From assembly GCA_963728565.1 (NCBI GenBank), contig CAVSLC010000011.1:32001-96000 (forward strand): a DNA stretch of 64,000 bases. The letters run 5' to 3'. A program made the translations under genes and the position numbers. The notes beneath the pieces are model-generated. The model was not told the origin of the DNA. It saw nothing but the letters and a program-made list of their open reading frames with translations, and ran no database searches. Source of the DNA: an uncultured delta proteobacterium (GTDB taxonomy: Bacteria > Desulfobacterota > Binatia > UBA9968). Of the stretch, positions 792 through 40,919 are shown piece after piece; positions within the stretch are counted from its first letter, which is position 1, and each line of letters begins with the position of its first letter.

Positions 792-1966
<1,175 letters not shown>

Positions 1967-1974
1967 CTATCTTC

Positions 1975-2201: not shown

Positions 2202-2269
2202 TCATCCACGGGAAGATCCGTCGCTATTTTTGAATCACCTTCGCTTTGCACGTCTAGCTCGATCATCCC

Positions 2270-2528: not shown

Positions 2529-2643
2529 CGTTTATCATTAACGCCGTCGCTCGTCTCTTTTCTCCATGACGCAGAATGTAACAGTTGCGGCGGCAGGCGA
2601 TTAGAGGGTAGATTTCGCATGGACTTATGAGAAGTTTTCATCA

Positions 2644-3539
<896 letters not shown>

Positions 3540-3902
3540 CAGCGGCTAGCTTGTCGAGTGAGCGCGCTGACAGCTGTTCTAGTCGAGGCCTTTGTTAAAA
3601 ATTATGGCCCGAGTGCTCACGGTCTACGTGAATACGAGCGATCACTTTCATACCATCGGCTTGATCTTTCTCTCTGCGTCGGCCAGTTGCTGGGCTCATG
3701 CGCCGAAGCCGCGCACGGTCACCAATCTGCGGCACTGGCACTTCTCGAGCGGCGGATTGCTAGTGTTCAACGGTCTGTGCCCACAGTAGGCGATTCCGCT
3801 CCGAAGCTCTTCCCACTGTCAATGGCGATTGAGGTGTTGTCCCCAATCGTTAGACGTATTAGAAAAATGCGCTCAAAGTGTCAGGAGAAAATGAGGTGAT
3901 CC

Positions 3903-4877: not shown

Positions 4878-5039
4878 AGGTTTAGGTCCCCGGCGATCTT
4901 TCTTGGTGTTCATGTGGATTCGTTGAGGCCAAGATCATAGCGCGGTTGACGAACATCTACTCGTTGACTAGTCTCAATAAGCAACGGTTGAGTGACAAAC
5001 CGGTTGTCCCTCGGCAGAATAAGCGGGATCCGTATCACG

Positions 5040-5402
5040 ATGACTAAGATTCTGCTTGTCGAAGATCATCCCGAATTGCGGGAGGTCCTCCAGCGCCAAA
5101 TCGAGTGGCTGGGGTTTACTACCATCATTGCTAAGAACGGCAAGGAGGGCGTTGATACAGCTATCGCGGAGAAACCAGACTTGATTCTGATGAATTCCTT
5201 GATGCCAGAGATGGATGGTTGGGAAGCGACCAAGATATTGCGCTCAAATCCTCAGACTAAGGACATTCCGATCTTGGCCGCGACGGCAATGTTCCGGCCC
5301 GCCGATCTAAGAGCTTGGTTAGACGTGGGATGCAACGACTACATTGTCAAACCATTTACATTGGATGAACTCTCAAGGAAGATTAGGGCTCTTATTTCGT
5401 GA
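5040..5402 (+). CDS. Single-domain response regulator (DivK-like) with Asn at the phosphoacceptor site
   Basis: ILLVED, PDLILMNSLMPEMDG, ATA and YIVKPF receiver motifs. Confidence 0.88.
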   Translation: MTKILLVEDHPELREVLQRQIEWLGFTTIIAKNGKEGVDTAIAEKPDLILMNSLMPEMDGWEATKILRSNPQTKDIPILAATAMFRPADLRAWLDVGCNDYIVKPFTLDELSRKIRALIS

Positions 5403-5777
5403 GGCGTTGGCGAGTCGGCGGCGACATCTTAGTTCGTCATAATGACTTTCGTACATAAGGGGTCATTCAAAGCTTACCGACGTTTTGGCCGTTGAAAACG
5501 ATGTTCCCAGGGACTCCGCATTACAACGTGTGACCGCTTATTATCGGTCGATGCGGTTTTGTGGTTCCAGAGTTTCATCGGTTTGAAGAGAGCCTTTTCG
5601 GTCCATCGGTGTTCAGCTACATGGTCAGTTGCAAATCACATTTGTCTTTAAGCCAATCACACTCTCGTCACTTCCGTAGCAACCACTTCAGCCGCTTCGC
5701 TTCCTATGTAAAAAGGACTCCGCGCTTCATGGACCATCGAACGTCTTGCGTAAGTAAGATCCGAGAAGCGGCGCATC

Positions 5778-6243
5778 TTGACTAGAAAAGCAGAGCTTGA
5801 CAGCCATTCTTTTGCCGCAGTAGGGTCGACCAGAGTAACAGTGAATACGCTAAAGAAAATCCGACTGCTGCTGGTTTCCGTTTTTTTGGCCTCGCCGGCG
5901 ATCTTGTCTGGTGCAGAACGTCACATCCATACTAGCGCTGGGTTAGGCGGTTCAGGTTTGCCTCTTTACGTTGCGAAGAGCGCCGGCATCTTCGAAAAAT
6001 ATGGACTCGACGTCGATTTGCTCGTTATTCCCGGCGGACCCCTTGGGATGCAGACCCTTGTCAGCGGCAACACTCAGTCCGCCAATATTGCGGCCATGAC
6101 TCCAATCAGGACAGTTCTGGCGGGCGGGGACATCGTGATGGTGGGCGGACATCTTAACCGTCAGATGTTCAACGACGTTGCAGAGCATTGAAATAACTCG
6201 TCCCGAGTCGCTTAGAAGTCGATTTGCGAGAGTCACGCGGTAG
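5778..6243 (+). pseudogene. Truncated NMT1/SsuA-type ABC substrate-binding protein
   Basis: LPLYVAKSAGIFEKYGLDVDL N-terminal motif; stops after ~137 aa, with EITRPESLR continuing in a shifted frame. Confidence 0.65.
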
Positions 6244-6274
6244 GAGCGTTGCTCGATCTTGTGATTGCTGCGCA

Positions 6275-7258
6275 TTATTTTTTGGTCGGTTTAGCAATGA
6301 TGTCGAAAAAAACGTTCTGGTCATCGAAGGCAAAGCCGGCTAATTCCCCATTATCGTTTAGGGCGTTTACACTTTGCCAGGTGTAGCCGTCAGGGCTGTT
6401 AATGCGAAGGTAATTCCCATCATTGTATAAATAGTAAGCTGCGACACCGTCCACGGTAGCAAACATCAGTGCCTGATCGTTGTTGTTGAGTTGCCGAACA
6501 TCACTGTTACCAGTAGCACCGGGAACTCTCAGTTCAGTAAACTGTCCGTTGTCCCATAAAAATGCATGTCGACCGTTAGTGTCCGAGTAGTGACCGACCA
6601 CCTTTAAACTGTTATTGATCGCAATAGCCTCTACCAGCGCCTCTATCGTTGGCGGCGAAATGTTTTGGTACTGCCCGTCGCTGCTGCGAATGAAACTGAA
6701 ATTGCCGGAAGTACCCGACGACCGCCCGACGATCTCCCCAAAATCATTGACGCCATACGCGACCGTTGATGTAGCACCCGACGCAGTAAAGTGAAACAGA
6801 TTGCCATTTTTACTGCGCAGGAAACCGGTTTCTATCTGAAGCAAATCATCATGACAGAATCCAACAATGTCGCCGCGATTATTCATTCCCAAAGGCGTTG
6901 TAAAGCGTTGAGTCGCGCCATCGGAGAACACTGCGCATTCAAAGTCTGTGACCTTGCGCTTCCTATCGACAAAAGAACCGGCAAAATCACCGATGAGCGC
7001 CAATTCTCGAGATCGATTAACCGCCGCTATGAATTTACCCTGTAGAGGGAAGACCTCCGTGACGGTGTAGTTGATCTCGGCGGGCGGCGCTGGCTTCTTG
7101 TCTGCGTTCTCAGGATTTGCGGCAGTCTTAACAGGTTGTGCCTGTCCAATGCCGGGAACCATCAATGCTAGGACGAAAAGAGCTACAGCCAAGACTTTTC
7201 TTTGCCCCTTTTCGTTGTTGCCAGGGGATACGCAAGCAGAAGCAAGTAGCAGTCTCAT
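6275..7258 (-). CDS. Secreted HAF-repeat (extracellular repeat) protein
   Basis: Signal-like N-terminus; repeats GMNNRGDIVG, GVNDFGEIVG, AINNSLKVVG..HAFLW, LNDNGELAG; GGAGG RBS. Confidence 0.8.
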   Translation of the reverse strand: MRLLLASACVSPGNNEKGQRKVLAVALFVLALMVPGIGQAQPVKTAANPENADKKPAPPAEINYTVTEVFPLQGKFIAAVNRSRELALIGDFAGSFVDRKRKVTDFECAVFSDGATQRFTTPLGMNNRGDIVGFCHDDLLQIETGFLRSKNGNLFHFTASGATSTVAYGVNDFGEIVGRSSGTSGNFSFIRSSDGQYQNISPPTIEALVEAIAINNSLKVVGHYSDTNGRHAFLWDNGQFTELRVPGATGNSDVRQLNNNDQALMFATVDGVAAYYLYNDGNYLRINSPDGYTWQSVNALNDNGELAGFAFDDQNVFFDIIAKPTKK

Positions 7259-7670
7259 TTAGACCTCCAGACCCGAGATTGGTTTTGGTCTAACACATTA
7301 GCGCGCAACGCAATTTCATGACTCTGCCGGTATAGGGACTAGGTTCGCCTGAACCCGGAATCACATTGTAGCCAAGAACTTCCAAAAGCTACCAACGATT
7401 GCCTAGAACCGCATAGCATCGCAAGGATGCTCGGGTCAATAGAATTCCGCAATCGTGCAGCTAGTTAGAAGGAAAGGGGGGTTTTGGATTGTGTGCTGTC
7501 GCCGTGGCGTGAGACGTCAGGCGCAGCAACGGACGTCTGCTTTCAACCCCGGCCGGTTACTTAGATACCTACGTGAGGGGTAAAAAAAATTTTCAGAGAA
7601 CCTTCTTTTCGGCGCATCGGTCGGCTATGCCGAGATGGCAGCAGTATTCCGGACGAGAGCAAACGACAAC

Positions 7671-8777
7671 TCAGGTCCAGTAAAGGATTCGAGCATTTGG
7701 CAAATGTTCGGCAATCGCCTGGTCGAAAAACTTACGCATCTCCTTCATCGACTCCGCCGGATACACGTATTTCAACGAGCCGAACTTCGTACGTTTCTTG
7801 GCTCTGGTATTCTCGTCCATATCGAGGGTAGAGGCGTTATACCACTCGTTCAAAACGGTCTTCGATTTTGGCGTGAACCGGTGGGTGATAAGTTCGATTG
7901 TCAGATCGACGTTGGCTAAACCTGCGAGCGCCGCCGCAGCCTGCCGCAACAACCGCCCATAAGCTTCCCGCCAATTACCTTCGGGCATGATCGGCGCGAT
8001 CGTAAGCCCAACCGGATAACCCGCGAGCGCCGCGCGCCGCATGCCGTCGAGGCGTGCGGGCATGCCGGCGGTGCCGCCTTCAAAGCGCGCCACCGGAGCG
8101 CTATTGACTGAGAAGCGGATGCGCGTGTGATTGTTGTGCGGAATGGTGAGCAGTGAATCGAGATTGTCGTACTTCGTCGTACAGCGTAGCTGCACCGGTG
8201 CCTGCCATGCGCCGAAATGAGAGATGGCCTTGGCGAGCGAGCCCGTGAGATGTTCGATACCCAGTGGATCGGTGTAGCACGAGCCTTCATAGGTTGTGCC
8301 TTCATCGGCGCGGGCCTGTGAAGCGGAGGTGATATGGCCGCGTCCGACATACTCGGCGAGCCCGTCTAGAATTTCTTCTATATTGGCATAAACACGGGTT
8401 ACGGGCGGGCCGCTAAGCGAACCGGCGAGATAACAGTATTGGCAATGGGCCGGGCAGCCTTCAGCCAAATCGAACCGCCAATCGGCGCTGGGCGGAATCG
8501 GCTGGAGCTTCCGTTTCGAAGCCGGCGACATGACGATGGCGAGTGTGGACTTCGCGTTCATATACGCTCGTCGCGGATCGTCGCTCACAAGCCCGCTCAA
8601 ACGATTGGAATCTAGCTCGACCACTTCCGCGCCCAAAGCAGCAGCTTTCTCGGCAATGTTCCGGCCATGGGCTAATTCACGAGCTGCAGGTGTGATCAGT
8701 ACCCGCTTGGGACGCCAGAGTTTCACCTGGCTATGCGTATGTGCAGATTCAGAGGACATGAAGATCCTGAGACTCAC
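7671..8777 (-). CDS. Spore photoproduct lyase-like radical SAM protein (SplB-like, catalytic Cys kept)
   Basis: CPAHCQYCYL radical SAM motif; YEGSCYTDPLGIE, TRIRFSVN, ITHRFT and KFGSLKYVYP resemble SplB motifs. Confidence 0.88.
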   Translation of the reverse strand: MSLRIFMSSESAHTHSQVKLWRPKRVLITPAARELAHGRNIAEKAAALGAEVVELDSNRLSGLVSDDPRRAYMNAKSTLAIVMSPASKRKLQPIPPSADWRFDLAEGCPAHCQYCYLAGSLSGPPVTRVYANIEEILDGLAEYVGRGHITSASQARADEGTTYEGSCYTDPLGIEHLTGSLAKAISHFGAWQAPVQLRCTTKYDNLDSLLTIPHNNHTRIRFSVNSAPVARFEGGTAGMPARLDGMRRAALAGYPVGLTIAPIMPEGNWREAYGRLLRQAAAALAGLANVDLTIELITHRFTPKSKTVLNEWYNASTLDMDENTRAKKRTKFGSLKYVYPAESMKEMRKFFDQAIAEHLPNARILYWT

Positions 8778-8786
8778 AACTGGAGC

Positions 8787-9854
8787 TTAGAAGGCGTACC
8801 GCACTTCGCAGCCGGGTAAGGTGCGTTTTAAAGCGCCGAGAAAAGATTCGAGGTAGCGGCGCTTCTCGTGCACCTTGTAGCGCAGGTTCCACATGCCGTT
8901 TTGGCTGAGCTTTTTCTGCTGCAGCTCAGGGCGCCACAGCCAGTCCTCTGCTCGGGGATGCCAGCGTAAGTTGACTTCGTGCAGTGCCGCATTGTGCGTC
9001 AGGAAAATGACTTCGGCCTTGAGCTGCTCTTTCGCGGCGGAGGACAGCGTCGCATCCAATTTCTCGAAGAGCTCGAGATAATCCGTCAGCCAGGCGTCAT
9101 AGACGATCACTGGGGAAAAATTGATGTGGACCTCGTAGCCCGCGTCTACGAAATCGTTGATCACCGCGATGCGTTCGCGCACCGGCGAAGTGCGCACGTC
9201 GACAACTTGTGCGACCCGCTCGGGCATCAAAGAAAAGCGAATGCGGGTCTTCTTTTGAGGATCGTAGCCGAGCAGATCGCGATTGACGTACTTGGTCGCG
9301 AAGCTCCCCTTGGCATTGGGAATGTCGCGAAAAGTGGCGATGAGATCGCGCACATTGTCGGAAACCATGGCATCAACTGATAAATCGCCGTTCTCGCCGA
9401 GATCGTAAACCCACAGCCTGGGATCCACCTGATCCGCTGCCGGCTTGACGCCCTGCCGCTCTGCGTGTCGCATCAGCGCGGCGCAGATCTGCTCGACATT
9501 GACGAAAACAGTGATCGGATTGGCGTAACCCTTACGCCGCGGCACATAGCAGTAGCCACATGCCATAGCGCAGCCGTTTGACGTTGACGGTGCGATAAAG
9601 TTGGAGCTGCGTTCATTGGGCCTCATGCTCATGCTCTTCTTCACGCCGAGTACCAGGGTATGTTGCTTGATGCGCAGCCAGTCTTCCGCGTTGCCTTGGT
9701 TGCCATAAAGAGTGGGAATTTGATTGTGCGACGGAACCATGATGCGCCGCGCGTCCGGATAGCGCTCGAGCACCTGTCGGCCGCGATCATAGGTTTCGAC
9801 CGCCTGCTCCATGTAGATCGTTTGAATGTCGAGAATATCCCGGGGAAGTGCCAT
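8787..9854 (-). CDS. Spore photoproduct lyase family radical SAM protein (second, divergent subfamily)
   Basis: CAMACGYCYVPRRKGYANP, YDLGENGDLSVD, SFATKYVN, RIRFSLMP and EVIFLTHN motifs. Confidence 0.85.
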   Translation of the reverse strand: MALPRDILDIQTIYMEQAVETYDRGRQVLERYPDARRIMVPSHNQIPTLYGNQGNAEDWLRIKQHTLVLGVKKSMSMRPNERSSNFIAPSTSNGCAMACGYCYVPRRKGYANPITVFVNVEQICAALMRHAERQGVKPAADQVDPRLWVYDLGENGDLSVDAMVSDNVRDLIATFRDIPNAKGSFATKYVNRDLLGYDPQKKTRIRFSLMPERVAQVVDVRTSPVRERIAVINDFVDAGYEVHINFSPVIVYDAWLTDYLELFEKLDATLSSAAKEQLKAEVIFLTHNAALHEVNLRWHPRAEDWLWRPELQQKKLSQNGMWNLRYKVHEKRRYLESFLGALKRTLPGCEVRYAF

Positions 9855-25090: not shown

Positions 25091-26138
25091 CTATGTTGCT
25101 AGCAATAGATATCGATTGTCGTCGTGACTTAACTTTGTGCCGAACGTGGAAGACAGCCGAGCGACGTTGTCCATAATTGCCGCTGATCCTGGTTGGTCAG
25201 GTCCTAATAAAGCAGGCTGCTCTTTTTCGTTGAGCGCGCTTGGAATGGCAGCAACTGTCGATATCTTATGATTGCGTAACTCTGCGACGACGACCAGACC
25301 ATTTCGATATCCCCGAGCCGGTTTAAAATCCGATCCGAAGATAAAATTACCCAAACTATAAAAGATCGGTTTCCCTTTGTAAATTTCGACGGCTTGGATG
25401 ACGTGCGGGTGGCTTCCGACCACCAGATCGGCGCCGGCGTCGACAGCCGACCGTCCCAAGGTGGTCTGATACTGGCAGACTTCGTACTGCCCTGAAACTC
25501 CCCAATGGAAATAGACGATCACGACGTCCACTTTTTTGCGGAGTTCGATGATGTCGTTCCTGACTTCCTGGAGCTGCTTTTCATCGGGATGGGTCAGCGT
25601 CGTCGCAGGCGCGCCGGGCATCTCAAAAAGTCGCCGATGGGGCTCATACGAAGTATAAACTTTCACACTCGCAACGCCTGCTTTGCTTTCAGTCGCCGCC
25701 TGTCCGACCGGCCAAAATACCGACGTATAGGAAAGCAGACCGAACGTTGTATCCTTCGCTCCGAATATCGCGGGGCGCCGCGCTTCCCGTACGTTCATCC
25801 CGGCGCCGGCATGGCCGATGTTGTATTTCTCGAGTAAAGACAGAGACTGTTTGATTGCATCGTCTCCGAAATGAACGTTGTTGGCGCAAGCGGCGGCGTT
25901 GATTTTGAGTTCAGCGAGCACCTTAACAAAGTCTCGATTGCAATGGCGCCAACCCGGCTTATGCTGAAGCAATACGTCGGGATCGAAAAGACAGCCTTCC
26001 AGATTGCAGATTTTCACATCGAAAGCGTCGAAATCTTCCCTCACTCAGATCCAGCACGTTCGCTGGTTCGATTGGGCTGCCGAGATTAATGTCTCCCACT
26101 AATGCCAGCGACAAATCGCGCCGCGTGTCACTCGCCAT
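25091..26138 (-). CDS. CapA family (poly-gamma-glutamate synthesis-like) metallophosphatase, frameshift near 26045
   Basis: LVGDINL, NLEG, ANNVH, FHWG, GSHPHV and YSLGNF motifs. Confidence 0.87.
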
Positions 26139-26358
26139 TTCTTTGCTCCTCGTTGGTACGTTTAACTTAGTGTTAAGCAAATGTCTATTTAGCTTGGCGC
26201 GAACGGGAGTTGTCGCACTCCGCCGCTTCATGTGAGCCGCTATTGTGAGCGCCGCCCGGTTAGGATTGTGAGCACCCTGAAAATGGGATATGAGTTTTCT
26301 GCGTTTATCACTTGCCCGCCGATTCGATACCAGCATTCAATATAGAGGAGAGCGCTTT

Positions 26359-27738
26359 ATGAACGAGACGAGCGACCTGGCCAAATGGATGGTGGGGTTG
26401 AAATGGGTAGACATTCCCCGCGAAGTCATCGACTATTCGAAAATTCTTGTTCTCGATACCATGGGCTGCATGTTAGGCGGATCGATTCAGGATAGTAACA
26501 AAGCTGCGCTTCGTTATACTCGCGCCATGGGTGGCTCGCCCGATTCAACGGTGGTCAATTATGGAGACCGAACCAACCCTTTTAACGCCGCCTTTATAAA
26601 TGCTTCCTTCGGCCACGGTTGGGACTTCGACGACATGATCAATGCCGGCGCGGGGCATGCCGTGAGCGCTTGTACGGCCGCGACGATGGCGTTGGCGGAA
26701 AAAGAAATCATTAGCGGGAGAGAGTTTCTCGAGGCTTGGATCACGGGTTACGAAGTCTCCAATCGTATCGGCGCCGCCACAAAGCCGGGGCACTTGAAAC
26801 GGGGTTTTCACGAGGTCGGGACGATCGGTCCCTTCGCTGGAAGCGCTGCCGCAAGTAAAATTTTGCGGTTGAACAAATGGCAAAGCGAGAATGCGATTGG
26901 GATTACCGTGAGCCAGGCGGCTGGAACCTTCCAGCACAGCCAGACCACCGGCGGCGCGATCAAGAGGTGTCATGCCGGCTTTGCGGCGGCGAGCGGAGTT
27001 CGATCGGCGTTGTTAGCAAAGGAAGGAATGACGGCTGCAAGGGAAGCTCTTGAAGGCAAGAAGGGCTTTGTCTTGTGCCACTCCGGGGACGAGAATGACA
27101 TGGATGCGATTACGCGAGACCTGGGTAAGGAGTGGTATACGACCAAAGCGGCTATGAAACCATACTCGTGTTGCGCGGGGCAGTACGGCATGCTCGACAT
27201 TATCTATAAGATGAAGGGGAAATACGATCTCAAGCCGGAAAATATTGAACGCATCAAGCTCTGGGGCAGCATCCGAAATATGTGGATGGTAGGCACGATC
27301 AAAGGTGAAGAGGTCAAGGATATCTTCGGCGCGCAGTTCAGCGCCAGATTCGGCGTGGGTCTGGCGTTGGTCGTGGGAGAAAACCGGATCAAAGCTTATC
27401 ACCAGAATATTCCGCCTTTTGGCAAATGGGCAGAAGTTGTCGAACTGGCTAAAAAAGTGGACGTGTACAACGACGACGAGATTCCGGAACGCGGCCCCAT
27501 CTTCGGTTATGCGAAATGCGAAATCCAATTAAAAGACGGTCGCACGTTGAAGGGCGAGTCGGGATCGCCCATGGGTTTTCCGGGTAACCCGATGCAACGG
27601 GAAGAGCGCCTGGAAAAGTTTTACGGTCAGGCGTTGCTAGTCCAGACTAAAGAAAAGGCCGACAGGATTGTCGAACTGGTTGAGAATCTCGAAAACCTAG
27701 AGGATATCCGGCCGATCGTCAGAAATATGATTTGCTAG
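26359..27738 (+). CDS. MmgE/PrpD family protein
   Basis: HGWDFDD, GYEV, RGFH, KRCHAG, KPYSCC and PMGFPGNP motifs. Confidence 0.92.
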   Translation: MNETSDLAKWMVGLKWVDIPREVIDYSKILVLDTMGCMLGGSIQDSNKAALRYTRAMGGSPDSTVVNYGDRTNPFNAAFINASFGHGWDFDDMINAGAGHAVSACTAATMALAEKEIISGREFLEAWITGYEVSNRIGAATKPGHLKRGFHEVGTIGPFAGSAAASKILRLNKWQSENAIGITVSQAAGTFQHSQTTGGAIKRCHAGFAAASGVRSALLAKEGMTAAREALEGKKGFVLCHSGDENDMDAITRDLGKEWYTTKAAMKPYSCCAGQYGMLDIIYKMKGKYDLKPENIERIKLWGSIRNMWMVGTIKGEEVKDIFGAQFSARFGVGLALVVGENRIKAYHQNIPPFGKWAEVVELAKKVDVYNDDEIPERGPIFGYAKCEIQLKDGRTLKGESGSPMGFPGNPMQREERLEKFYGQALLVQTKEKADRIVELVENLENLEDIRPIVRNMIC

Positions 27739-27760
27739 ATTGGTTACGGTCGAGAGCGAC

Positions 27761-28701
27761 ATGAGCGAAGGATCCGAGTTCGACATTGTTATCATCGGCG
27801 GAGGAGTCGCTGGTCTTAGCGCTGCATTGTTCGCGGCGCGCTTCGGACATTCGACAATGGTCATTGAGCGCTTTTCGCCCGGCGGTCATTTGGTGAACGT
27901 CGAGAGCATCGAGGACTTTCCGGGTTTCCGAACGGCGTGCCGGGGTATGAGCTCGTTCCACTAATGCAAGAGCAAGCCGCTAAATATGGTGCTGAGTTTC
28001 AAATGGCCGAGGTCGAAAGCATTGAGGCGGTGGAATCGTACTGGCAAGTGAACACCGCTGAAGGCATCTGTCACGCCAAAGCGGTGATCGTCGCAACCGG
28101 GTCTCATCCAAAGGATCTGGGCGTGCCGCGTGAGAGCGCACTGCGTGGGCAAGGGGTTTCTAATTGCGCCAGTTGCGACGGACCTCTGTTTACCGATCAA
28201 GTGGTCGGAGTTGTCGGCGGAGGGAGCTACGCCCTGCAGGAAGCGTTAACCTTGGTAAACCACGCCTCTCAAGTGATCTTGTTTCACGATCAAAGAACGC
28301 TCTCCGCTCCGCAGACTCTCCAGCAAAGAGTGCTCAGCCATCCTAAAGTAGCCGCGCGCTACAATACGACGGTGGAAGAGATCCAGGGAGATGATGCAGT
28401 TACGGGTGCCGCGGTTCGCGATACCCTCACCGGAGAAAAATCTCAGGTTCAGCTCGCTGGTATGTTCATATATGCAGGCTTGGAGCCAAACACGGACTTT
28501 TTGAAAAACCTTCTGCGGCTGGATCACGATAATCGGGTGCCAACTGATGGCTGGATGCGGACTGAACTCCCCGGTCTGTTCGCGGCAGGAGATTTACGAA
28601 CGGACTCCGCGGGGCTGGCGATTACCTCAGCTGGTGATGGTGCAGCCGCGGCTATAGGAGCTCACGGATACCTCAAAGACCGGGTATGGAGACAAAAGTA
28701 G
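27761..28701 (+). CDS. trxB: Thioredoxin-disulfide reductase (frameshift near 27935)
   Basis: GGGVAG, IEDFPGF, GVSNCASCDG (CxxC), VVGGG and GLFAAGD motifs. Confidence 0.88.
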
Positions 28702-28814
28702 CACCTGGGGACTGCGGCACGACGCACGATATCTCCATGTAAATTTCGTCTAAAAATGAGATAGATGTATCATGCTTTTTAGCAGAGCGTATAAAAAAGG
28801 GAGGGCAGCAACCT

Positions 28815-29390
28815 ATGAATGGCTTCATTGTATTAGATCCTGTGGGCATTCCTCAGAAGGGTACCAGGAAGCCGCTGAAAGGCGTGGGAAATCTTGAGGG
28901 CAAGAGGATTGGTTTTATTTGGGGGATGCATGAGCTCTCCACTAAGTTTTGGCCAGTTTTAGAAGAGGAGATAGTTGGCGCGCTCAAGCCCCGCGAGGTT
29001 CACCGAGTGCATAAGAATGACAAAACTGATGGAAGAGCTAAGGGCAATACCTGGATCCCGGCGCCATTGCGAATAATCGAGGAAGCCGCATCAAAGGTCG
29101 ACTATGCGGTTCTAGGTGTCGGGGCTTGAGGGTCCTGCACATCTGCCGCCGTGCGTGACACGGTAAATATGGTAAAGCTCGGGATTCCATCAGTTGTATT
29201 TGTCCACGAACCTTTCGAGAGACTCGCCAGAGCTCAGATGAGACAACTCGGAATAGAAGATTCAAAACCCTTTGTGATCGTCTATCCAGTCGATCGACCG
29301 TCCGCCGATTCCCAGGAGACAGTGCGTAAAAAAGCAAAAGAACAACTCCAGCGCATACCTGATTTGCTCAAGGTCCAACAGTGGCGGTGA
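28815..29390 (+). CDS. UGSC-family selenoprotein (Sec at TGA 29127-29129), 191 aa
   Basis: ORFs 28815-29129 and 29151-29390 share one frame separated only by TGA in VLGVGA-U-GSCT (UxxC); SECIS-like hairpin follows. Confidence 0.87.
29148..29164 (+). promoter_or_regulatory. Putative bacterial SECIS stem-loop
   Basis: GCCGTG-CGTGA-CACGGT; loop starts 25 nt after UGA with G at loop position 2. Confidence 0.6.
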
Positions 29391-29502
29391 CTGGTAACCG
29401 CTGTCGATGGCGACGAAGCTGCTCATGTAGTGAACGAATTGGATCGACAGAGAGGCTTCATCGGTGCTGAGCGCCGGGGTCGCATGACAAAGGAGTAGAA
29501 TC

Positions 29503-30596
29503 ATGAGCCTGCAAAATTACAAATTGACTTCGCAGCAGTACCAAGTCGAGGATATTGATGCGTTCGCAGATCTGGCCTATGAGAAGGGCTGGACCAATGG
29601 ATGCCCGTGTTCCCTCCGACACTCAAGAAAGTGACGGCGATCATCGACTATTTGAAACGGCCACCTGACGAGGCGCTCGGCATCGTTTCTCCTGGCGAAG
29701 GAGTCGCGACGATCGAGAAGATCGCAATCAATTGTGCGATGGCCGGCTGCAAGCCGGAATATGTTCCGGTGGTGCTTGCCGCCATGGAAGCGATACTGGA
29801 CCCGAATTTTCATATTTTGAGTGCCCAATGCAGTACATTCGGTGGTCTCGCCCCTGGCTATTATTAGCGGACCTGTGGTCAAGAAGCTTGGCTTTAACCA
29901 TTCCGAGGGAGCCCTCGGTGGTTCGGGTCATCGGGTAAACGCCACCATTGGCCGGGCGATCCGCTTGATCCTGTGGAACATCGGTCAGGGCAAGCCGGGA
30001 GAACTTTCGAAAACGGTGTACGGTGGACCGGCGCGCTGGCATTCATTGATCGCCGAGCGGCCGAGAGAAGAAGGGAATCCCTGGGACGAGTTCCACGTCG
30101 ATTACGCCGGGCTAAATGCTCAGGATAGCGCTGTGTCGATGCTAGGCGCCAATGGCAAGGTTGTATCGTGCGGCTTTGCAGCCTCATCGATCGACAATAA
30201 CATCTCGACAATAGCAAACGACATCAAGGGAGACGGCGTAGCGGCCGCTCCGCATGTCTTCGTGCTGAATCCGCAGGGAGCTAAAATTTTAGCGGATGCG
30301 GGCTGGAGCAAGGAGCGTTTCCGGGATGCAGTTTATGAGCAATGCTATGTTCAGGTGAGAGATATCAAAAAAGTAGCTAGCCAGGCTTCACCGACTAGCG
30401 TCTACTACTGGATGAAGAGGATCAGTCCGGATAATGACGATGCGAAACTCTTTCCATCGCCGAGCCCAGCCATTTGAAAATCTTGGTATCGGGAGGCTTT
30501 GGCGGCAGTCATGTGTGCTATCATTTCAGAGGCAGTACGCATTCGCTAACCGGCTCGGGCTTAGTTACAAAAAAGATCAACTGGAATTGGGACTAA
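29503..30596 (+). CDS. UGSC-associated uncharacterised protein (frameshifts near 29600, 29840 and 30470)
   Basis: AGGAG RBS; GWTNG.PVFPPT..ATIEKIAINCAMAGCKPEYVPVV..NATIGRAIRL motifs, as in proteins usually encoded next to UGSC genes. Confidence 0.78.
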
Positions 30597-30651
30597 TGCA
30601 GAGAGCTTGAGTTACAGAAACAAAATCTTTATTGCATCGCAGGGGATTACA

Positions 30652-31700
30652 ATGGAAAAAGTTTCATTCTCAACGGCTTGTGTCGTTGGGTCCTGTTTCG
30701 GTATGCTTCCTTGGCTTTAATACTTCCCTTCACGCTCAAACAGACTCTTACTACAAAGGCAAAACTGTCACGATCGTAGTGGGCGTCTCTCCCGGCGGCG
30801 CCTATGATGTGTGGGCGCGGCTAATCGCGCCGCACCTAAGCAAACACATCCCGGCAATCGCAGGTCATCGTTCAAAATATGCCGGCGCCGGGAGTCAGTC
30901 GCCGCCAACTACGTTCACAACGTTGCCAAGCCTGATGGTTTGACCATGGTGATGCCGGCCAACCGATTGTATATCAATCAAATCGTCGGCCGCCCAGAGG
31001 TCAAGTACGATGTGCGAAAATTCGCATGGATCGGCAACCCGCAGAGATATTACACGGTGATCTATATGCGCGCCGACGCGCCATATAAGTCCATAGCGGA
31101 CATCATCAGCGCAAAAGACCAGCCAAATGCGGTGCGCCTGGGACAAACAGCGCCGGCTACACTCTTTCGCAACTCCTCGAAGAAGCTATAGGAGCCAAGT
31201 TCGAATTTGTGTTGGGGTATCCCGGCGCTAGTGAAATCGACTTGGCAGTTGAAAGAGGAGAAGTCATTTGCCGCGGTCACGATATCATCAATCACTTCAG
31301 TGGAAGCACTTATAGGGCTTGGCACGAAAGAGGGTTTGACCGCCACATCGTTCAAGACTCACCAAAAGAGACCCAAAACTGCCGGATACACCGACCATTT
31401 ATGAGCTCATGGATAAATACAAAACATCTCAGATCGCTCGCAATGTCACCGAGTTCATTTCAGCAAGCGCTGAATTTGGCCGGCCGATGCTGACCTCGCC
31501 AGGAACTCCGGTGGACCGAGTAAAAACATTACGCGAAGCTTACGCTAAGACGATGCAAGATCCGGGATTCATCGCGCAGACGAATAAATCAAAGTTGGTA
31601 TTGCAACTCTACCGGAGAAGAGTTACAGGCGTTGGTAGAACGGATCATGAACCAACCCACGGAGGTCATTGAGCGCGTAAAGAAAATATTAAACGAATAG
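30652..31700 (+). CDS. TctC/Bug tripartite tricarboxylate transporter substrate-binding protein (multiple frameshifts)
   Basis: YYKGKTVTIVVGVSPGGAYD, AKPDGLT, GYPGASEIDLAVERGE and FGRPMLTSPGTP motifs. Confidence 0.82.
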
Positions 31701-31914
31701 AGCTGCTGAATGACCGATTGGTTATTTCCACTTCACCCCGGCGCTGCGCCCTTAACGCGTAAATGCAATTCTGCTTACGAAGTGGTCTGGTTCCGTACCA
31801 TTTACGCCCCGCCGTCATACAGGTTAGGGCAATCAACGCAGCGGTGAAGATTGGATCCTAAGACTCGCAGCAAGCTGAAGCGGGCACTCCCGCTGGTCGA
31901 CTTCGCAAAAGGAC

Positions 31915-32245
31915 TCACTCCGACTTAGGCGCAGGTGCTTTCTGCACCTGAAGGTCGTTGATTATTTTCTCTACCCCTTCGACTAACGAAGCGATGTCTT
32001 CCGCCCTCCTTTTTTCAAACTCCGATCCAACCAGCCCGTTTAAGGAAACGACGGCATTGACCGTGTCCACATCAATGCGAGTGAAATTCGAAGCTTTCTG
32101 CAACAAGCCTCGCCTTGACTGATGCCGTGATCGTCAGATCATCGATATTGCGGCCAGCGGTTCTTCCGGTCATTGCCTGGCAAGCAGAGAGCAAAAAGGA
32201 TAAGGAGTGCCGCTGCGACTTTATCGTCGGTATCATAGGGTACAT
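31915..32245 (-). CDS. BON-domain (OsmY-like) lipoprotein, frameshifted
   Basis: LSACQAMTGRTAGRNIDDLTITASVKARL plus TRIDVDTVNAVVSLNGLV..VEGVEKIINDLQV. Confidence 0.78.
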
Positions 32246-34143: not shown

Positions 34144-34219
34144 ATAGGCAGCGACTCATTTGAGCATTAGGCGGCGGATGGGGTGCATTATGAAACCAAC
34201 GATAGAGAAAGGAGATGAA

Positions 34220-35238
34220 ATGGCTAACTACACTGTGATCGATGCCGATGGGCACGTGCGCGAATCCATCGCCGGCATGCGCGAGTTTCTGGAGCCGCGC
34301 TGGCAGCGGCGCAATTTATTTCCCAACGACGAGTGGGACCGCGATCTGCACGGCAAGTTGGGGCAAAAGCCTGAAGGGCCGGAAGATCAACTGGCCGCCA
34401 TGGACGAGGACGGCATCGACGTCATGGTGCTTTATCCAACGGCGGGCTTGCACGTGAGCGCGCTACACGAAAAGGATTACGCGACGGGAATCACGCGCGC
34501 CTACAACGACTGGCTGTTTCATTTCTGCAAGAAAGATTCGAGCCGGTTAAAGTTCGTCGCGCTGCTGGCGCCGCAAGACCCAACCGCGGCCGCCGAAGAG
34601 CTTACGCGCGCAGTGAAGGAACGCGGCGCGCTGGCCGGCGTGCTGCCGACTTACCTGCCGCAGATGCCCGACTTTGGCGATGGCTTTTACGATCCGATTT
34701 ACGCCGCGGCGCAACAGCTTGGCGTCGGCATCGGCTTTCACACCGGCACGTCGGCGGATTCGCTCGGCGGCCAGCGCTTTCGTAAGTTTCTCTCGGCGCA
34801 CACCATCGATCATCCGGCCGAACAGATGATGGCGCTGATCGCGACGATTGTCGGTGGCGTGTTCGAGCGCTTTCCCAAGACTGAGCATCGGCTATCTCGA
34901 ATCCGGCATCGGTTGGGTGCCGTACATGATGGACCGGCTCGACGAGGAAGTGGAAAAGCGCGGCGCCGTCGAAGCGCCGTATCTGACCAAACTGCCGAGT
35001 GAGTATGTGAAGAGCGGGCGGATATATTTCGGCGTCGAGTGCGAAGAGAAGACGATCCCCGACGCGATGCGCTGGGGATTGGAAGATACGATTCTCTATT
35101 CCTCCGACTATCCGCACTGGGATGGCGACTGGCCGCACACGGTCAAAGCGATTCGTGATCGAAAAGATCTCTCTGATGACTATGAAGCAGAAAATGCTGC
35201 ACGACAACGTCGCCCGGTTTTACAAATTTAACGAGTGA
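34220..35238 (+). CDS. Amidohydrolase family protein (frameshifts near 34880 and 35180)
   Basis: IDADGH, YLESGIGWVP and SSDYPHWD motifs. Confidence 0.88.
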
Positions 35239-35371: not shown

Positions 35372-36379
35372 ATGCCTGAGTGGAAGATGATCGATGCCGA
35401 CGGGCACATCCGTGAAGTCGAAAGTGAGGTCTTTGAGTACTTGCCGGACCATTACAAGCAACGCCGCGAGGCACTGCTTTACTTTCCTCTGTTGCCGCAT
35501 CACGGCTGGCATCGTCAGGCGGGCCGCCGGTCCGGCACCGGATCGTCATTCCTGATTCCTTCGCTGCAGGATTGGCGTACGGCTTTAGAACAGGGGAATA
35601 TCGAGGCGGCAGTAGTTTATCCGACACGCTTCATGCATATCGGACAGGTGGGCATCACCGAATTCGCTGTCGAACTGAGCCGCGCTTACAACGACTATCT
35701 TTATGAACGTTTTTTGCGTGATGAACCCCGCTTGAAGGGGGTTGCCGTTCTGCCTCTGCAGGATATTGATGCGGCGGTCACGGAACTGCGGCGGGCGGTT
35801 AGAAACTATGGCATGGTGGGCGGGGTGCTTCCGGCGGACGGATTGCCGCGGCCATTAGGTCATCCGGAGTTTCACCCGCTGTACGAAGAGGCCAACCGGC
35901 TGGGCTGCATGTTGGCGGTTCACTCACAAAATTCGCTGCGCAACAACGATCTCTTTCTATGGCGCGATGAAGCCGCGACACTGGCCCATGTCTGGCCGCA
36001 GATGCGCCAGTTCACCAATTTGATGTTCTCGGGCGTGATAGGAAAATACCCCGACCTGCGCATCGCGTTTTTGGAGGCAGGTTGCGGCTGGGTACCGTAT
36101 CTGATCAGCAAGATGGAAGGGCGGCTGGGCGAGCTGCCGCGGCCATTGAAACTGATCGAACGCGGGCAAGTTTACTTTCAGTGCGGCGAAGAGATGACCA
36201 CTGGCCGCGACTTAGAACTGCTCGGCGATCAGTGTCTTTTCTGGGCTTCCGATTTTCCTCACGAAGGAATCGTCGACATGAGCAAGGCAGTCCAGGAATT
36301 CCTCTCGCGCGACGATATACCCGCCTCATCCAAGAAAAAAATCGGCTACGACAACGCCAAAAAATTGTATGGTCTATAA
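35372..36379 (+). CDS. Amidohydrolase family protein
   Basis: IDADGH, FLEAGCGWVP and ASDFPHE motifs. Confidence 0.9.
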   Translation: MPEWKMIDADGHIREVESEVFEYLPDHYKQRREALLYFPLLPHHGWHRQAGRRSGTGSSFLIPSLQDWRTALEQGNIEAAVVYPTRFMHIGQVGITEFAVELSRAYNDYLYERFLRDEPRLKGVAVLPLQDIDAAVTELRRAVRNYGMVGGVLPADGLPRPLGHPEFHPLYEEANRLGCMLAVHSQNSLRNNDLFLWRDEAATLAHVWPQMRQFTNLMFSGVIGKYPDLRIAFLEAGCGWVPYLISKMEGRLGELPRPLKLIERGQVYFQCGEEMTTGRDLELLGDQCLFWASDFPHEGIVDMSKAVQEFLSRDDIPASSKKKIGYDNAKKLYGL

Positions 36380-36701
36380 ATGCGGCCAGTGGCTGGTTAA
36401 GAGCGTCGATCGTCATCAGACATACTCGTAAGGGACTGTTAACCGAAATAGATTAACCTCGCTGTATCGCAACTTGATGCTGCGTCTTATATCGTCGCTC
36501 CACGGGCTATCGATGTCGTTCCATTTCCTGCGAACTAACTTGACTAAGCTGAGCGAAAATATTACGCGAAGCGTTAGGAATTCACGCCTTCGTTTCCACC
36601 CACGCCTACTTCTACGGCGTTTTTGCAATGTCACTGAACGCAGCGTTCCGCTAGGTCAGAGTGAAGATAGTTAATCCATAACCAAGATCGGAGGTCAGCC
36701 T

Positions 36702-38088
36702 ATGGCCATGCAATCACAAGAAGCGTTAACAAAGCTCAGCGGCGCGATCAAAGGCAGGGTGCTAGGCCCTGATGATTCCGGCTATGACGAGGCGCGCCAA
36801 ATTTGGAATGCCATGATCGACCGTCGTCCAGCCGTTATCGTGCAGCCGGCAAATGGCGACGACGTTGCGCCGGCCATCAAATTTGCGCGGGAGAACGCGC
36901 TGGAGATTTCCATTCGCGGCGCCGGACATAACATCGCCGGCAACGCCATCTGCAATGGCGGCCTAACCATCGATTTCTCACAGATGAAGCAGGTCCGAGT
37001 GGATGCCGCGAAGAAACGCGCCTACGTCGATGCCGGCGCAACGCTCGGTGATCTGGACGCCGCGACACAGCGGCACGCTTTGGCGACGCCGGTGGGCATC
37101 AACTCGACAACCGGGATTGCCGGGTTGACTCTCGGTGGCGGGTTCGGCTGGCTGACTCGGAAACACGGCATGACCATAGACAATCTGGTTTCGACTGACG
37201 TGATAACTGCCGATGGTAAAAAGCTACGCGCAAGCGAGCAGGACAACCCGGAGCTTTTCTGGGCCTTGCGCGGCGGCGGCGGGAATTTCGGTGTCGTTAC
37301 CCAGTTCGAGTTTGCCCTTCATCCGGTGGGTCCTGAAATCCTCGCCGGCTTGCTCGTATTCCCCTTTGCGCAGGCAAAGCAGGTCCTGACCCGGTATCGT
37401 CAATTTGCTAATACGGCGCCCGAGGATCTCAGCGTCTGGGTTGTGCTCCGTCAGGCGCCGCCGCTACCTTTTCTTCCGCAAGATGTTCATGGCAAGGAGG
37501 TTATCGTTCTGCCGATCTTTTACGCAGGGGGTGCGGCTGCGGAAGGCCGCAGGCTGATCGACGAGCTTCGTTCTTTCGGAAATCCCCACGGCGAGCATGT
37601 CGGCGCCCAGCCCTATGTCAGAATGGCAGAAGGCTTTCGATCCTCTGCTCACTGCCGGCGCCAGAAATTATTGGAAATCTCATAATTTCACCGAGCTCAG
37701 CGACGGCGCCATCGATTCGATCATCGAGTACGCCGGCAAACTGCCCTCTCCTCAATGCGAGATCTTCATCGGTCATATCGCCGGCGCTGCCAATCGCGTG
37801 CCTTCCGAGGCTATGGCCTATGCGCACCGAGACGCCAAGTTTGTCTTGAATGTGCATGGCCGCTGGGAAAGCGCAGCAGAGGATCGGATCTGCATCGACT
37901 GGGCACGTGCTTTCTTTAAAGCGAGCGCGCCTTACGCTTCCGCCGGCGCTTACGTTAATTTTATGACTGAGGATGAGGGCGAGCGAGTGACCGCTGCTTA
38001 CGGGCCAAACTATGATCGTCTGGCTCAATTAAAAAAACGCTTCGATCCCGACAATGTTTTTCATTTGAATCACAATATCAAACCATAA
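36702..38088 (+). CDS. FAD-binding oxidoreductase (BBE-like), frameshift near 37620
   Basis: RGAGHN, GLTLGGGFG, WALRGGGGNFGVVT, YVNF and FDPDNVF motifs. Confidence 0.9.

Positions 38089-39513: not shown

Positions 39514-40919
<1,406 letters not shown>

What the first reader, a model, noticed from the sequence alone, without database searches (positions are those of the whole stretch)
26359..31700. Candidate selenium-dependent reductase system: MmgE/PrpD - TrxB - UGSC selenoprotein - partner - TctC
Seen: five co-directional genes encoding an MmgE/PrpD enzyme, a thioredoxin reductase (CASC), a UxxC selenoprotein, a ~360-aa conserved partner (GWTNG.PV.PPT / AMAGC.PEY) and a TctC-type binding protein. 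Known: UGSC-containing proteins are a selenoprotein family of unknown function, and Sec-dependent glycine reductase is driven by thioredoxin/TrxB. Inference: NADPH -> TrxB -> UGSC selenol -> partner subunit forms an uncharacterised redox machine acting on a carboxylate delivered by TctC and processed by the MmgE/PrpD enzyme. No thioredoxin gene is in the cluster, so the UGSC protein may itself be the TrxB substrate.
Basis: partly seen in the sequence, partly recalled or inferred. Interest (0 to 1): 0.85.

Follow-up and report, generated by a model that had tools for sequence, protein, structure and literature searches.

The report
UGSC selenoprotein reductase gene cluster
A soil bacterium carries a five-gene cluster in which a selenium-containing protein of long-unknown function sits beside its usual partner protein, a thioredoxin-reductase-like enzyme of its own and a nutrient-binding protein, which gives a testable idea of what this widespread selenoprotein family does.

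Summary
The five co-directional genes are present at the stated coordinates. In this window the TrxB, partner and TctC genes are broken by indels. A 97%-identical relative, an 84-91%-identical relative and contigs from three DNA metagenomes and one RNA library carry the intact versions, so the breaks are most likely assembly errors.

UGSC is a real selenoprotein: it has an in-frame UGA, a SECIS-like hairpin, and the genome has selB, selD and tRNA-Sec.

The conserved core is UGSC plus the ~360-aa partner. They were adjacent or fused at 20 of 20 sampled UGSC loci. The partner has no Pfam, NCBIfam or PDB relative, although its model is confident.

The TrxB is a paralogue distinct from the housekeeping enzyme. 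Of the 30 most similar TrxB loci in the order, 24 adjoin UGSC/partner genes, in several gene orders, and many are followed by TctC. This compares with 0 of 29 TrxB loci elsewhere in the phylum. No thioredoxin lies beside them. However, only 2 of 20 sampled UGSC loci have such a TrxB.

The PrpD link is weak.

Best reading: an NAD(P)H-driven TrxB-like/UGSC/partner reductase module acting on an imported solute. Substrate and chemistry are unknown.

The parts
26359..27738 (+). MmgE/PrpD-family gene, intact (459 aa). It is not a 2-methylcitrate dehydratase equivalog.
   Evidence: PF03972 scores 202 bits and PF19305 scores 69 bits. NCBIfam PrpD models reach only 19-41 bits against cut-offs of 458-950.
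27761..28701 (+). TrxB-like flavoprotein disulfide reductase (CASC motif), a paralogue of the housekeeping TrxB. The frame is broken by a 1-nt gap near 27919.
   Evidence: TIGR01292 matches both pieces. The intact orthologue scores 308 bits, below the cut-off of 343. Indel. Clade.
28815..29390 (+). UGSC-family selenoprotein gene (191 aa with Sec), motif G-A-U-G-S-C.
   Evidence: PF24696 scores 96.3 bits; NF041046 scores 74 bits, below its cut-off of 125.
29127..29129 (+). In-frame TGA read as selenocysteine.
   Evidence: All three UGSC loci of this genome, and every listed match in 104 genomes of the order, have exactly one TGA.
29148..29164 (+). SECIS-like hairpin, a 6-bp stem with loop CGUGA, starting 21 nt after the U of UGA.
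   Evidence: The same hairpin occurs in L025 and L027:2874. The main UGSC type has an 8-9-bp hairpin with compensatory changes.
29503..30596 (+). Partner gene (364 aa in the intact orthologue) of an unnamed family. It carries the motifs GWT(N/D)G.PV.PPT and AMAGCKPEY. The frame is broken at about 29600, 29850 and 30453.
   Evidence: No Pfam or NCBIfam match. The family has 4225 representatives.
30652..31700 (+). TctC/Bug-family solute-binding protein gene with an N-terminal signal-like segment. The frame is broken by nine indels.
   Evidence: The intact orthologue scores 56.5 bits on PF03401. Indels.

Best explanation
The locus encodes a two-protein selenoenzyme with a reductase of its own.

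The UGSC protein has a flavodoxin/Rossmann-like domain with Sec-Gly-Ser-Cys at the start of a helix. It works together with the ~360-aa partner, which in many organisms is fused to it and which most likely holds the substrate site.

A TrxB-like flavoprotein (FAD, CASC dithiol), distinct from the cell's ordinary thioredoxin reductase, takes electrons from NAD(P)H. It reduces the selenenyl-sulfide of UGSC directly, with no thioredoxin in between. The reduced Sec/Cys pair then reduces a small molecule bound by the partner, in the canonical type perhaps together with the partner's conserved Cys. That molecule is probably an organic acid brought in through the TctC-type binding protein.

Shown here: gene content; Sec decoding; the UGSC-partner unit; the specific genomic link between the TrxB-like clade and UGSC/partner/TctC; and that the frameshifts are most likely assembly errors.

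Inferred: direction of electron flow, direct TrxB-to-UGSC contact, the nucleotide used, the substrate class, and any role for PrpD.
For: Sec decoding:
- selB and selD lie on C28 and a tRNA-Sec on C25.
- There is one TGA in every listed UGSC match (150 rows; 104 of 121 genomes have a match).
- The hairpin after UGA has compensatory changes at 4 of 7 pairs.

UGSC-partner unit:
- The genome holds three modules, one of them fused.
- The partner was adjacent or fused at 20 of 20 UGSC loci picked by score and contig length.
- Of the top 150 partner homologues, 17 are 480-600 aa and 39 are 400-479 aa. Five of 5 long ones tested carry a UGSC domain, four in full. Three of 3 tested from the shorter class start with the post-UGA piece of UGSC.
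- The fused model has pLDDT 95.1 and pTM 0.94.

TrxB-like clade:
- Each of 5 genomes has one housekeeping TrxB at 417-421 bits. The eight TrxB copies that adjoin UGSC/partner genes score 246-329 bits, below the cut-off of 343.
- A 100/100 branch separates the two groups.
- 24 of 30 closest TrxB loci adjoin UGSC/partner genes, 4 are cut by contig ends and 2 have none. Gene orders seen: TrxB-UGSC-partner, fused-TrxB-TctC, TrxB-SBP-partner-UGSC, UGSC-partner-TrxB.
- Controls: 0 of 29 TrxB loci from other families of the phylum and 0 of 5 housekeeping loci.
- No [WF]CxxC ORF of 70 aa or more was found in 37 loci.

Other:
- The five-gene order is intact in L017/L024 and in L025.
- RNA-library contigs cover parts of the TrxB, UGSC, partner and TctC genes.
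Against: - Only 2 of 20 sampled UGSC-partner loci have a TrxB within 10 kb.
- TrxB copies more than 50% identical to this one were found only in family f1. UGSC-partner modules also occur in Chloroflexota, and there without a TrxB nearby. The reductase is therefore not a universal component.
- The partner has no recognisable catalytic fold: best Z is 6.6 and none reaches 8.
- The fused GHUSTC type that most often sits beside the TrxB-like gene has Ala where other partners have the conserved Cys (19 of 19, against Cys in 32 of 34 elsewhere). A Sec-to-partner-Cys relay therefore cannot be general.
- TctC (58 places) and PrpD (10 places) are very abundant in this genome, so some adjacency is expected by chance.
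- The PrpD genes near other modules are only 22-31% identical to this one.
- The TrxB-like clade lacks the HRRxxxR stretch of the housekeeping enzymes. The motif's role is recalled from memory, so the nucleotide used is open.
Confidence: 0.55

Rival explanations
1. The module is a general thiol/selenol defence or repair system, for example a peroxide, disulfide or metalloid reductase, on the pattern of AhpF/AhpC. In that pattern a TrxR-like flavoprotein serves one dedicated partner. The TctC and PrpD genes would then be unrelated neighbours in a crowded catabolic island.
For: - After TIGR01292, the next NCBIfam matches of the TrxB are the AhpF homologue models (232 and 196 bits).
- Published overviews treat most Sec/Cys UxxC proteins as redox proteins (passages of PMC2398784 and PMC13188914).
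- TctC and PrpD are abundant in the genome.
- Modules sit beside many different catabolic genes: Amidohydro_2, acyl-CoA dehydrogenase, enoyl-CoA hydratase, Mo-hydroxylase.
Against: - TctC lies directly after TrxB in 11 of 30 loci, and after the partner in all window-type loci. By my estimate from 58 copies in 4.5 Mb, about 4% would be expected.
- Genomes carry up to 12 UGSC matches each, set in different solute-binding-protein contexts. That pattern suits substrate-specific enzymes better than one defence function.
- Neither UGSC nor the partner matches a peroxiredoxin, AhpC or ArsC family.
Confidence: 0.2
2. The partner is a non-redox enzyme, such as an isomerase, lyase or hydratase acting on a small acid. 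Sec would serve as nucleophile or acid/base. The TrxB-like protein would only keep or restore the Sec/Cys pair in the reduced, active state.
For: - Most UGSC-partner modules have no reductase of their own nearby (18 of 20).
- The partner's best, though weak, Foldseek matches are class I fumarate hydratases (E 2.5e-4, TM 0.24-0.29) and cyclic amide hydrolases.
- The neighbours are hydratases, dehydratases and amidohydrolases.
Against: - The fold matches are weak: Z is 5.6 over 178 residues at rmsd 5.0, and no match reaches Z 8.
- A U-x-x-C pair at a helix start is the usual signature of a redox couple (established knowledge, not tested here).
- A whole TrxB clade kept beside these genes suggests stoichiometric electron supply.
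Confidence: 0.15
3. The locus is a decaying remnant. On this reading the frameshifts are real and the cluster is not functional in this organism.
For: There are 13 indels inside three coding regions of the window. At 27921 one of four runs, X3, does not show the extra letter.
Against: - Fourteen of the 15 indel events are gaps in the window, about half of them at homopolymer runs.
- All other sampled populations carry open frames.
- Other genes of this assembly also show split frames.
- PrpD and UGSC are intact.
Confidence: 0.05

Closest known systems
UGSC family (seleno)protein (Pfam PF24696, NCBIfam NF041046); the 'UGSC-containing protein' of Zhang and Gladyshev
   Same: The Pfam match is above its cut-off, the U-G-S-C motif is present, and Sec is encoded by UGA followed by a hairpin. 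Passages of PMC1976440 and PMC13188914 describe the family's function as unknown.
   Different: The window copy belongs to a divergent subfamily with a 9-residue insert. It scores 74 bits on NF041046, below the cut-off of 125. The model gives a flavodoxin/Rossmann-like fold, whereas PMC2398784 guessed a Trx-like fold.
UGSC/Unknown_1 fusion noted in the GOS selenoproteome paper (PMC2398784, Figure S1A)
   Same: That paper describes a UGSC protein fused to a conserved domain of unknown function with conserved Cys (passage read). This matches the fusions seen here.
   Different: The supplement was not available, so it is not verified that Unknown_1 is this partner. The passages read mention no separate-gene pairing, TrxB-like gene or TctC.
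Low-molecular-weight thioredoxin reductase with thioredoxin (TIGR01292)
   Same: Same fold family, with the FAD and NAD(P)H glycine motifs and a CxxC redox pair.
   Different: It scores below the equivalog cut-off and forms a separate clade from the housekeeping TrxB. The motif is CASC rather than CATC, and the HRRxxxR stretch is missing. There is no thioredoxin next to it; it sits beside UGSC/partner instead.
Glycine reductase and D-proline reductase (Sec-dependent substrate reductases; GrdB/PrdB carry UxxC)
   Same: The working analogy is a UxxC selenoprotein subunit plus a substrate-binding subunit, with reducing power drawn from a pyridine-nucleotide-linked system. This rests on established knowledge plus the UxxC entry for PrdB in Table 2 of PMC2398784.
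   Different: Neither UGSC nor the partner gave any Pfam match other than PF24696 at E up to 1. No evidence of a pyruvoyl group was sought. The context is a catabolic island of a soil bacterium, not Stickland fermentation.
AhpF/AhpC-type pairs (a TrxR-like flavoprotein dedicated to one non-thioredoxin partner)
   Same: The shared idea is a paralogous TrxR-like reductase serving one specific redox protein encoded beside it. AhpF homologue models are the next-best matches.
   Different: There is no N-terminal AhpF domain (the protein is 313 aa), and the partner is not a peroxiredoxin.
Class I (Fe-S) fumarate hydratase, alpha subunit or N-domain
   Same: These are the best Foldseek matches of the partner model (E 2.5e-4 to 1e-3; 7xky_A gives Z 5.6 with 178 residues aligned).
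   Different: TM is only 0.24-0.30 and rmsd is 5 Å or more. Only two Cys positions are nearly invariant, and one of them is missing in the window type. This is a lead, not a fold assignment.

Membership tests
UGSC family (PF24696 / NF041046) | Profile match above the curated cut-off | tested here: met
   PF24696 scores 96.3 bits against a cut-off of 25. The stricter NCBIfam equivalog NF041046 is not reached: 74.1 bits against 125.
UGSC family (PF24696 / NF041046) | U/C-G-S-C motif with Sec encoded by an in-frame UGA | tested here: met
   GAUGSC with TGA at 29127-29129. The motif is conserved in 29 further UGSC genes.
Bacterial selenoprotein (any) | Sec machinery in the genome and a stem-loop just after the UGA | tested here: met
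   selB scores 395.7 bits and selD 382 bits. tRNA-Sec is present. The hairpin spans 29148-29164. The family's main hairpin has 4 of 7 pairs with compensatory changes. Sec insertion itself was not shown.
Thioredoxin-disulfide reductase (TIGR01292 equivalog) | Score at or above the equivalog cut-off of 343.45 bits | tested here: not met
   The intact orthologue scores 308 bits. The window pieces score 57.6 and 239.7 bits. The housekeeping copy at C20 scores 418.8 bits.
Thioredoxin-disulfide reductase (TIGR01292 equivalog) | Redox-active CxxC and two dinucleotide-binding glycine motifs | tested here: met
   C136-A-S-C139 is invariant, and GGGVAG and GGGSYA are present.
Thioredoxin-disulfide reductase (TIGR01292 equivalog) | NADPH 2'-phosphate motif HRRxxxR (motif recalled from memory) | tested here: not met
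   The housekeeping rows read HRRNELRAS or HRRDALRAS. The window type reads FHDQRTLSA, and most of the clade reads FH....FSAQ.
Thioredoxin-disulfide reductase (TIGR01292 equivalog) | Acts on thioredoxin | not testable with these tools
   No thioredoxin-motif ORF was found in 37 loci. The biochemistry is unknown.
2-methylcitrate dehydratase PrpD | Equivalog-level match (TIGR02330, NF006943, NF042438) | tested here: not met
   Scores are 19-41 bits against cut-offs of 458-950. Only the broad MmgE/PrpD Pfam domains are met.
TctC/Bug solute-binding proteins (PF03401) | Profile match above the cut-off | tested here: met
   The intact orthologue scores 56.5 bits against 27. The window pieces gave no NCBIfam match. 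The signal peptide was judged by eye only.
Glycine / D-proline reductase (GRDB PF07355; Gly_reductase PF09338) | Sequence membership of the selenoprotein or of the partner | tested here: not met
   hmmscan at E up to 1 returned only PF24696 for the fused protein and nothing for two partners.
Class I fumarate hydratase fold | Structural superposition covering the domain with a clear score | tested here: inconclusive
   Foldseek gives E 2.5e-4 with TM 0.24-0.29. VIA gives Z 5.6 with 178 residues aligned at rmsd 5.0.
Thioredoxin fold (proposed for UGSC in PMC2398784) | The UGSC domain superposes on Trx-fold proteins | tested here: inconclusive
   The top 50 VIA matches of residues 28-181 are flavodoxin-, Rossmann- or periplasmic-binding-protein-like (Z 9-11). 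No Trx-fold entry is among them.

The most novel reading that the evidence does not exclude
UGSC plus its partner would be a third kind of selenocysteine-dependent substrate reductase, after the glycine/betaine/sarcosine and D-proline reductases. It would be built on a catalytic subunit with no solved structural relative. In one bacterial family it would be fed by its own thioredoxin-independent TrxB paralogue, and it would act on organic acids imported through tripartite tricarboxylate-type binding proteins. That would explain one of the most abundant selenoprotein families of unknown function in aquatic and soil metagenomes.
Probability: 0.3. Interest if true: 0.85.

Novelty: new variant of a known kind. 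Interest (0 to 1): 0.68.

Why it matters
UGSC-containing proteins were among the most abundant selenoprotein families in the Global Ocean Sampling data: 255 sequences in 37 samples (Table 2 of PMC2398784). A 2026 review still lists them among selenoproteins whose functions are largely uncharacterised (passage of PMC13188914).

This work adds three things.
- It shows that the protein works with a large partner family that has no family model (4225 representatives). The two are often fused.
- The partner model is confident but has no convincing solved relative.
- One bacterial family keeps a dedicated TrxB paralogue, and often a TctC binding protein, beside the pair.

Together these turn an open question into a defined in-vitro experiment with three proteins, a nucleotide and a ligand screen of the binding protein. 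The work also shows that the broken frames in this MAG should not be read as pseudogenes.

Tried and rejected
- **Complex prediction.** I did not try again, so direct contact remains untested.
- **Family searches for the partner.** Pfam and NCBIfam gave nothing for the window pieces or for intact orthologues. A PDB profile search gave 0 hits at E up to 10.
- **ESM Atlas** returned only 'hypothetical protein', plus automatic names such as 'thioredoxin family protein'.
- **Fold searches.** The best VIA Z for the partner was 6.6, over 75-82 residues of the C-terminal half.
- **Promoter and terminator scans** of 25900-32200 gave no more sites than shuffled sequence.
- **Word-indexed protein search with UGSC** found only 5 close hits, all 105-127 aa fragments.
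- **Mononucleotide-shuffle z-scores** of the post-UGA region were weak for the window type (z -0.4). The hairpin there rests on conservation in three sequences only.
- **Read laying.** Some bins have no RNA-contig cover, and this means nothing. A contig spanning 30491-30679 crosses the partner/TctC junction, but it does not prove a single transcript.
- **TrxB search across the phylum** found no copy above 48% identity outside family f1. Only 1 other f1 genome was in that sample.
- **Literature.** Searches for 'UGSC' (17 papers, 9 of them on selenoproteins) and for a selenoprotein/thioredoxin-reductase neighbourhood found no functional study in the held library. Paywalled papers and supplements were not seen.

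Full report
**What is in the window.**

Five genes lie on the + strand between 26359 and 31700.

- An MmgE/PrpD-family gene is intact. It matches the Pfam N and C domains, but the 2-methylcitrate dehydratase equivalog models reach only 19-41 bits.
- A TrxB-like gene with the motif CASC is split by one frameshift near 27919.
- A UGSC-family gene has an in-frame TGA at 29127-29129 within the motif G-A-U-G-S-C. PF24696 scores 96 bits. NF041046 scores 74 bits, below its cut-off of 125.
- A ~360-aa partner gene is broken three times.
- A TctC-family gene is broken nine times.

Gaps between genes are 22, 113, 112 and 55 nt. Around the cluster lie NMT1-type binding proteins, Amidohydro_2 genes, a GMC oxidoreductase and a PGA_cap gene. 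Together these look like a catabolic island.

**Are the broken frames real?**

The window is part of a 4.53-Mb MAG of 28 contigs.

- A same-genus genome (G005; L017/L024) holds the same 4 kb at 97% identity with all five genes open.
- The two sequences differ by 97 substitutions and 15 indel events. Fourteen of those events are 1-2-nt gaps in the window, and about half lie at homopolymer runs.
- A more distant relative (L025 = G115:C143) has the same five genes in the same order, all open. Amino-acid identity is 75-91%.
- Contigs of three DNA metagenomes from three studies and of one metatranscriptome carry the relative's version at the 10 indel places listed. At 27921, 3 of 4 runs carry it. 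At the other nine places every run that covers them carries it. Five further rows were not shown.
- Other genes of this assembly also show split frames.

I conclude that the frameshifts are most likely consensus errors of the assembly and not gene decay. Reads from the MAG's own sample were not identified as such, so this is not proven.

**Is UGSC a selenoprotein here?**

- The genome has selB (395.7 bits) next to selD, which itself contains a TGA. It also has a tRNA-Sec.
- All three UGSC loci of the genome have one in-frame TGA.
- In a sample of 121 genomes of the order, 104 have a UGSC match. Each of the 150 listed matches has exactly one TGA, and 92 further matches were not listed. That sample includes the unpublished genomes G012, G097 and G105.
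- In the main UGSC type, an 8-9-bp hairpin begins about 12 nt after the UGA. In an alignment of 28 sequences, 4 of 7 predicted pairs show changes on both sides that keep the pair.
- The window type has a different 6-bp hairpin at 29148-29164. It is shared with L025 and with one Dehalococcoidia gene, and on its own it does not stand out from shuffles.

**The conserved core is UGSC plus partner.**

- In this genome the partner follows UGSC at C6, and the two are fused into one 559-aa frame at C5.
- I picked 20 UGSC loci from the top of the family list by score and contig length, without regard to their neighbours. The partner is adjacent or fused in all 20.
- The partner family is large: 4225 representatives at E up to 1e-3.
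- Among the best 150 representatives, 82 are 300-399 aa, 39 are 400-479 aa and 17 are 480-600 aa.
- All 5 long ones tested carry a UGSC domain, four in full and one covering profile positions 16-144 of 172. All 3 tested from the 400-479 class begin with the piece of UGSC that follows the Sec codon. These are Sec-containing fusions that gene callers cut at the UGA.
- The reverse does not always hold. Two of five Chloroflexota loci found through the partner have no detectable UGSC, and one has four tandem partner genes.
- A fusion of UGSC with a domain called 'Unknown_1' was noted in 2008 (passage of PMC2398784). The figure is in a supplement I could not open, so its identity with this partner is unverified.

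**Structure.**

- A canonical fused protein (L042, with alignment A2) folds with pLDDT 95.1 and pTM 0.94.
- Its UGSC domain (residues 28-181) superposes on generic flavodoxin-, Rossmann- and periplasmic-binding-protein-like domains (Z 9-11). No thioredoxin-fold entry is among the first 50.
- Sec sits between a strand (residues 88-94) and a helix (97-112).
- The window-type partner (the L017 orthologue, with alignment A3) folds with pLDDT 93.3 and pTM 0.93.
- That partner model has no convincing solved relative. A PDB profile search gave 0 hits, and the best VIA Z is 6.6 over 75-82 residues, with none at 8 or more.
- Foldseek's best matches are class I fumarate hydratases at E 2.5e-4 and TM 0.24-0.29, followed by cyclic amide hydrolases. 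I treat that as a lead only.
- Nearly invariant partner residues include D32, C83 (in AMAGC.PEY), N146, R151, N159, C182 and E185. The window type keeps C83 but has Leu at the C182 position, by my reading of the sequences.

**The TrxB is a dedicated paralogue.**

- Each of five genomes of the family has one TrxB scoring 417-421 bits on TIGR01292. The eight copies that adjoin UGSC/partner genes score 246-329 bits, below the cut-off of 343; the lowest is the frameshifted window copy.
- In a tree of 30 sequences, the UGSC-adjacent copies are separated from the housekeeping ones by a branch with 100/100 support.
- They carry CASC instead of CATC, and they lack the HRR...R stretch seen in the housekeeping rows.
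- I searched the 121-genome sample with the intact orthologue and took the 30 best loci with 1.5-kb flanks. Their contents were:
  - 3 are the window type (PrpD-TrxB-UGSC-partner).
  - 21 have a fused UGSC-partner gene of the G-H-U-S-T-C type directly upstream. In one of these (L084) only a 29-residue C-terminal match was found.
  - 4 are cut by contig ends (one of them, L094, is from unpublished G105).
  - 2 show nothing.
- TctC follows the TrxB directly in 11 of the 30.
- Further arrangements occur: TrxB-UGSC-partner with a paralogous pair, TrxB-SBP-partner-UGSC, UGSC-partner-TrxB, and UGSC-partner followed 2.3 kb later by a TrxB.
- Controls:
  - None of 5 housekeeping loci has a UGSC or partner gene within the 1.5-kb flanks; L055 has the 3' end of a TctC gene at its edge.
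  - None of 29 TrxB loci from other families of the phylum (40-48% identity) has UGSC, partner, TctC or PrpD within the flanks.
- No ORF of 70 aa or more with a [WF]CxxC thioredoxin-type motif occurs in 37 of these loci. The genome has three WC[GA]PC ORFs elsewhere.

**Limits of that link.**

- Only 2 of the 20 UGSC loci sampled independently have a TrxB within 10 kb.
- The clade with more than 50% identity was seen only in family f1.
- The fused type that usually sits beside the TrxB has Ala where other partners have Cys83: 19 of 19, against Cys in 32 of 34 elsewhere.
- The window-type UGSC itself is rare. In the 121-genome sample only G000 and G115 have it. G005 and, at a contig end, G004 have it too.

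**PrpD and TctC.**

- PrpD lies within 10 kb of 4 of the 20 UGSC loci. Those copies are only 22-31% identical to the window's PrpD. In two of the four loci a Mo-hydroxylase subunit sits between the partner and PrpD.
- The genome has 10 PrpD and 58 TctC places, so I rate the PrpD link as weak.
- The TctC link is moderate to good, because of its direct adjacency in both operon types.
- Other recurrent neighbours are SBP_bac_1/6 (10 loci), NMT1 (9), Amidohydro_2 (9), enoyl-CoA hydratase and acyl-CoA dehydrogenase.

**Expression and habitat.**

- Fourteen DNA runs labelled soil, rhizosphere, sediment or plain 'metagenome' hold 43-53% of the stretch's sampled words. Six RNA runs hold 13-20%.
- Contigs of one RNA library cover parts of the TrxB, UGSC, partner and TctC genes, and one contig crosses the partner/TctC junction. 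The tool warns that DNA can be present in such libraries and that a contig is not a transcript.

**Reading.**

The best-supported model is a TrxB-like/UGSC/partner reductase module that takes electrons from NAD(P)H and acts on an imported small molecule. Confidence is 0.55. The rivals are a general redox defence pair (0.2), a non-redox enzyme with a maintenance reductase (0.15) and a decaying locus (0.05).

The family is known, and its fusion partner was glimpsed in 2008. Two things were not found in the held literature: the partner as a defined family without a structural relative, and the dedicated TrxB clade with TctC (searches; passages of four papers read).

Noticed in passing
window 34160-35231, 35372-36456, 36702-38088, 39514-40856: Overlapping same-strand ORF pairs suggest further frameshift errors in neighbouring genes, including two Amidohydro_2 genes and a FAD_binding_4 gene.
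   Followed up: partly
G000:C28:36585-39495 and C25:176054-176148: selB lies directly before selD, and selD itself has an in-frame TGA. The tRNA-Sec is on another contig.
   Followed up: partly
L014 7741-9420 (G000:C5, minus strand): This genome's own fused UGSC-partner gene of the G-H-U-S-T-C type has no TrxB beside it. Its orthologues in other genomes (63-70% identity) are followed by a TrxB-like gene. G000 has only two TrxB genes in total.
   Followed up: partly
L072 / L068 (G005:C17:19079-19927): A TrxB-like gene with one in-frame TGA lies 2.3 kb downstream of a UGSC-partner pair. This could be a Sec-containing reductase or a sequencing error.
   Followed up: no
L027 (Dehalococcoidia MAG contig) 745-9065: One fused UGSC-partner gene and one separate UGSC gene are followed by four tandem partner genes, each 45-46% identical to the window-type partner.
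   Followed up: partly
L026 1-1938: A contig labelled Armatimonadota carries a partner gene (84% identity) and a TctC gene (76% identity) of the window type. This could be a binning error or gene transfer.
   Followed up: no
L040 5670-7997 and L041 6411-8690: In two genera a molybdopterin-binding hydroxylase large subunit lies between the partner and a PrpD paralogue, all on one strand.
   Followed up: partly
window 25091-26044 (minus strand); also L024, L025, L038: A PGA_cap-family gene lies upstream of the cluster. A related gene recurs in L038, a locus that also has a TrxB-like gene with UGSC-partner modules.
   Followed up: no
G015 (same family): This one genome has 12 matches to the UGSC family, several of them on the same contigs. 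That suggests a large paralogous expansion.
   Followed up: no
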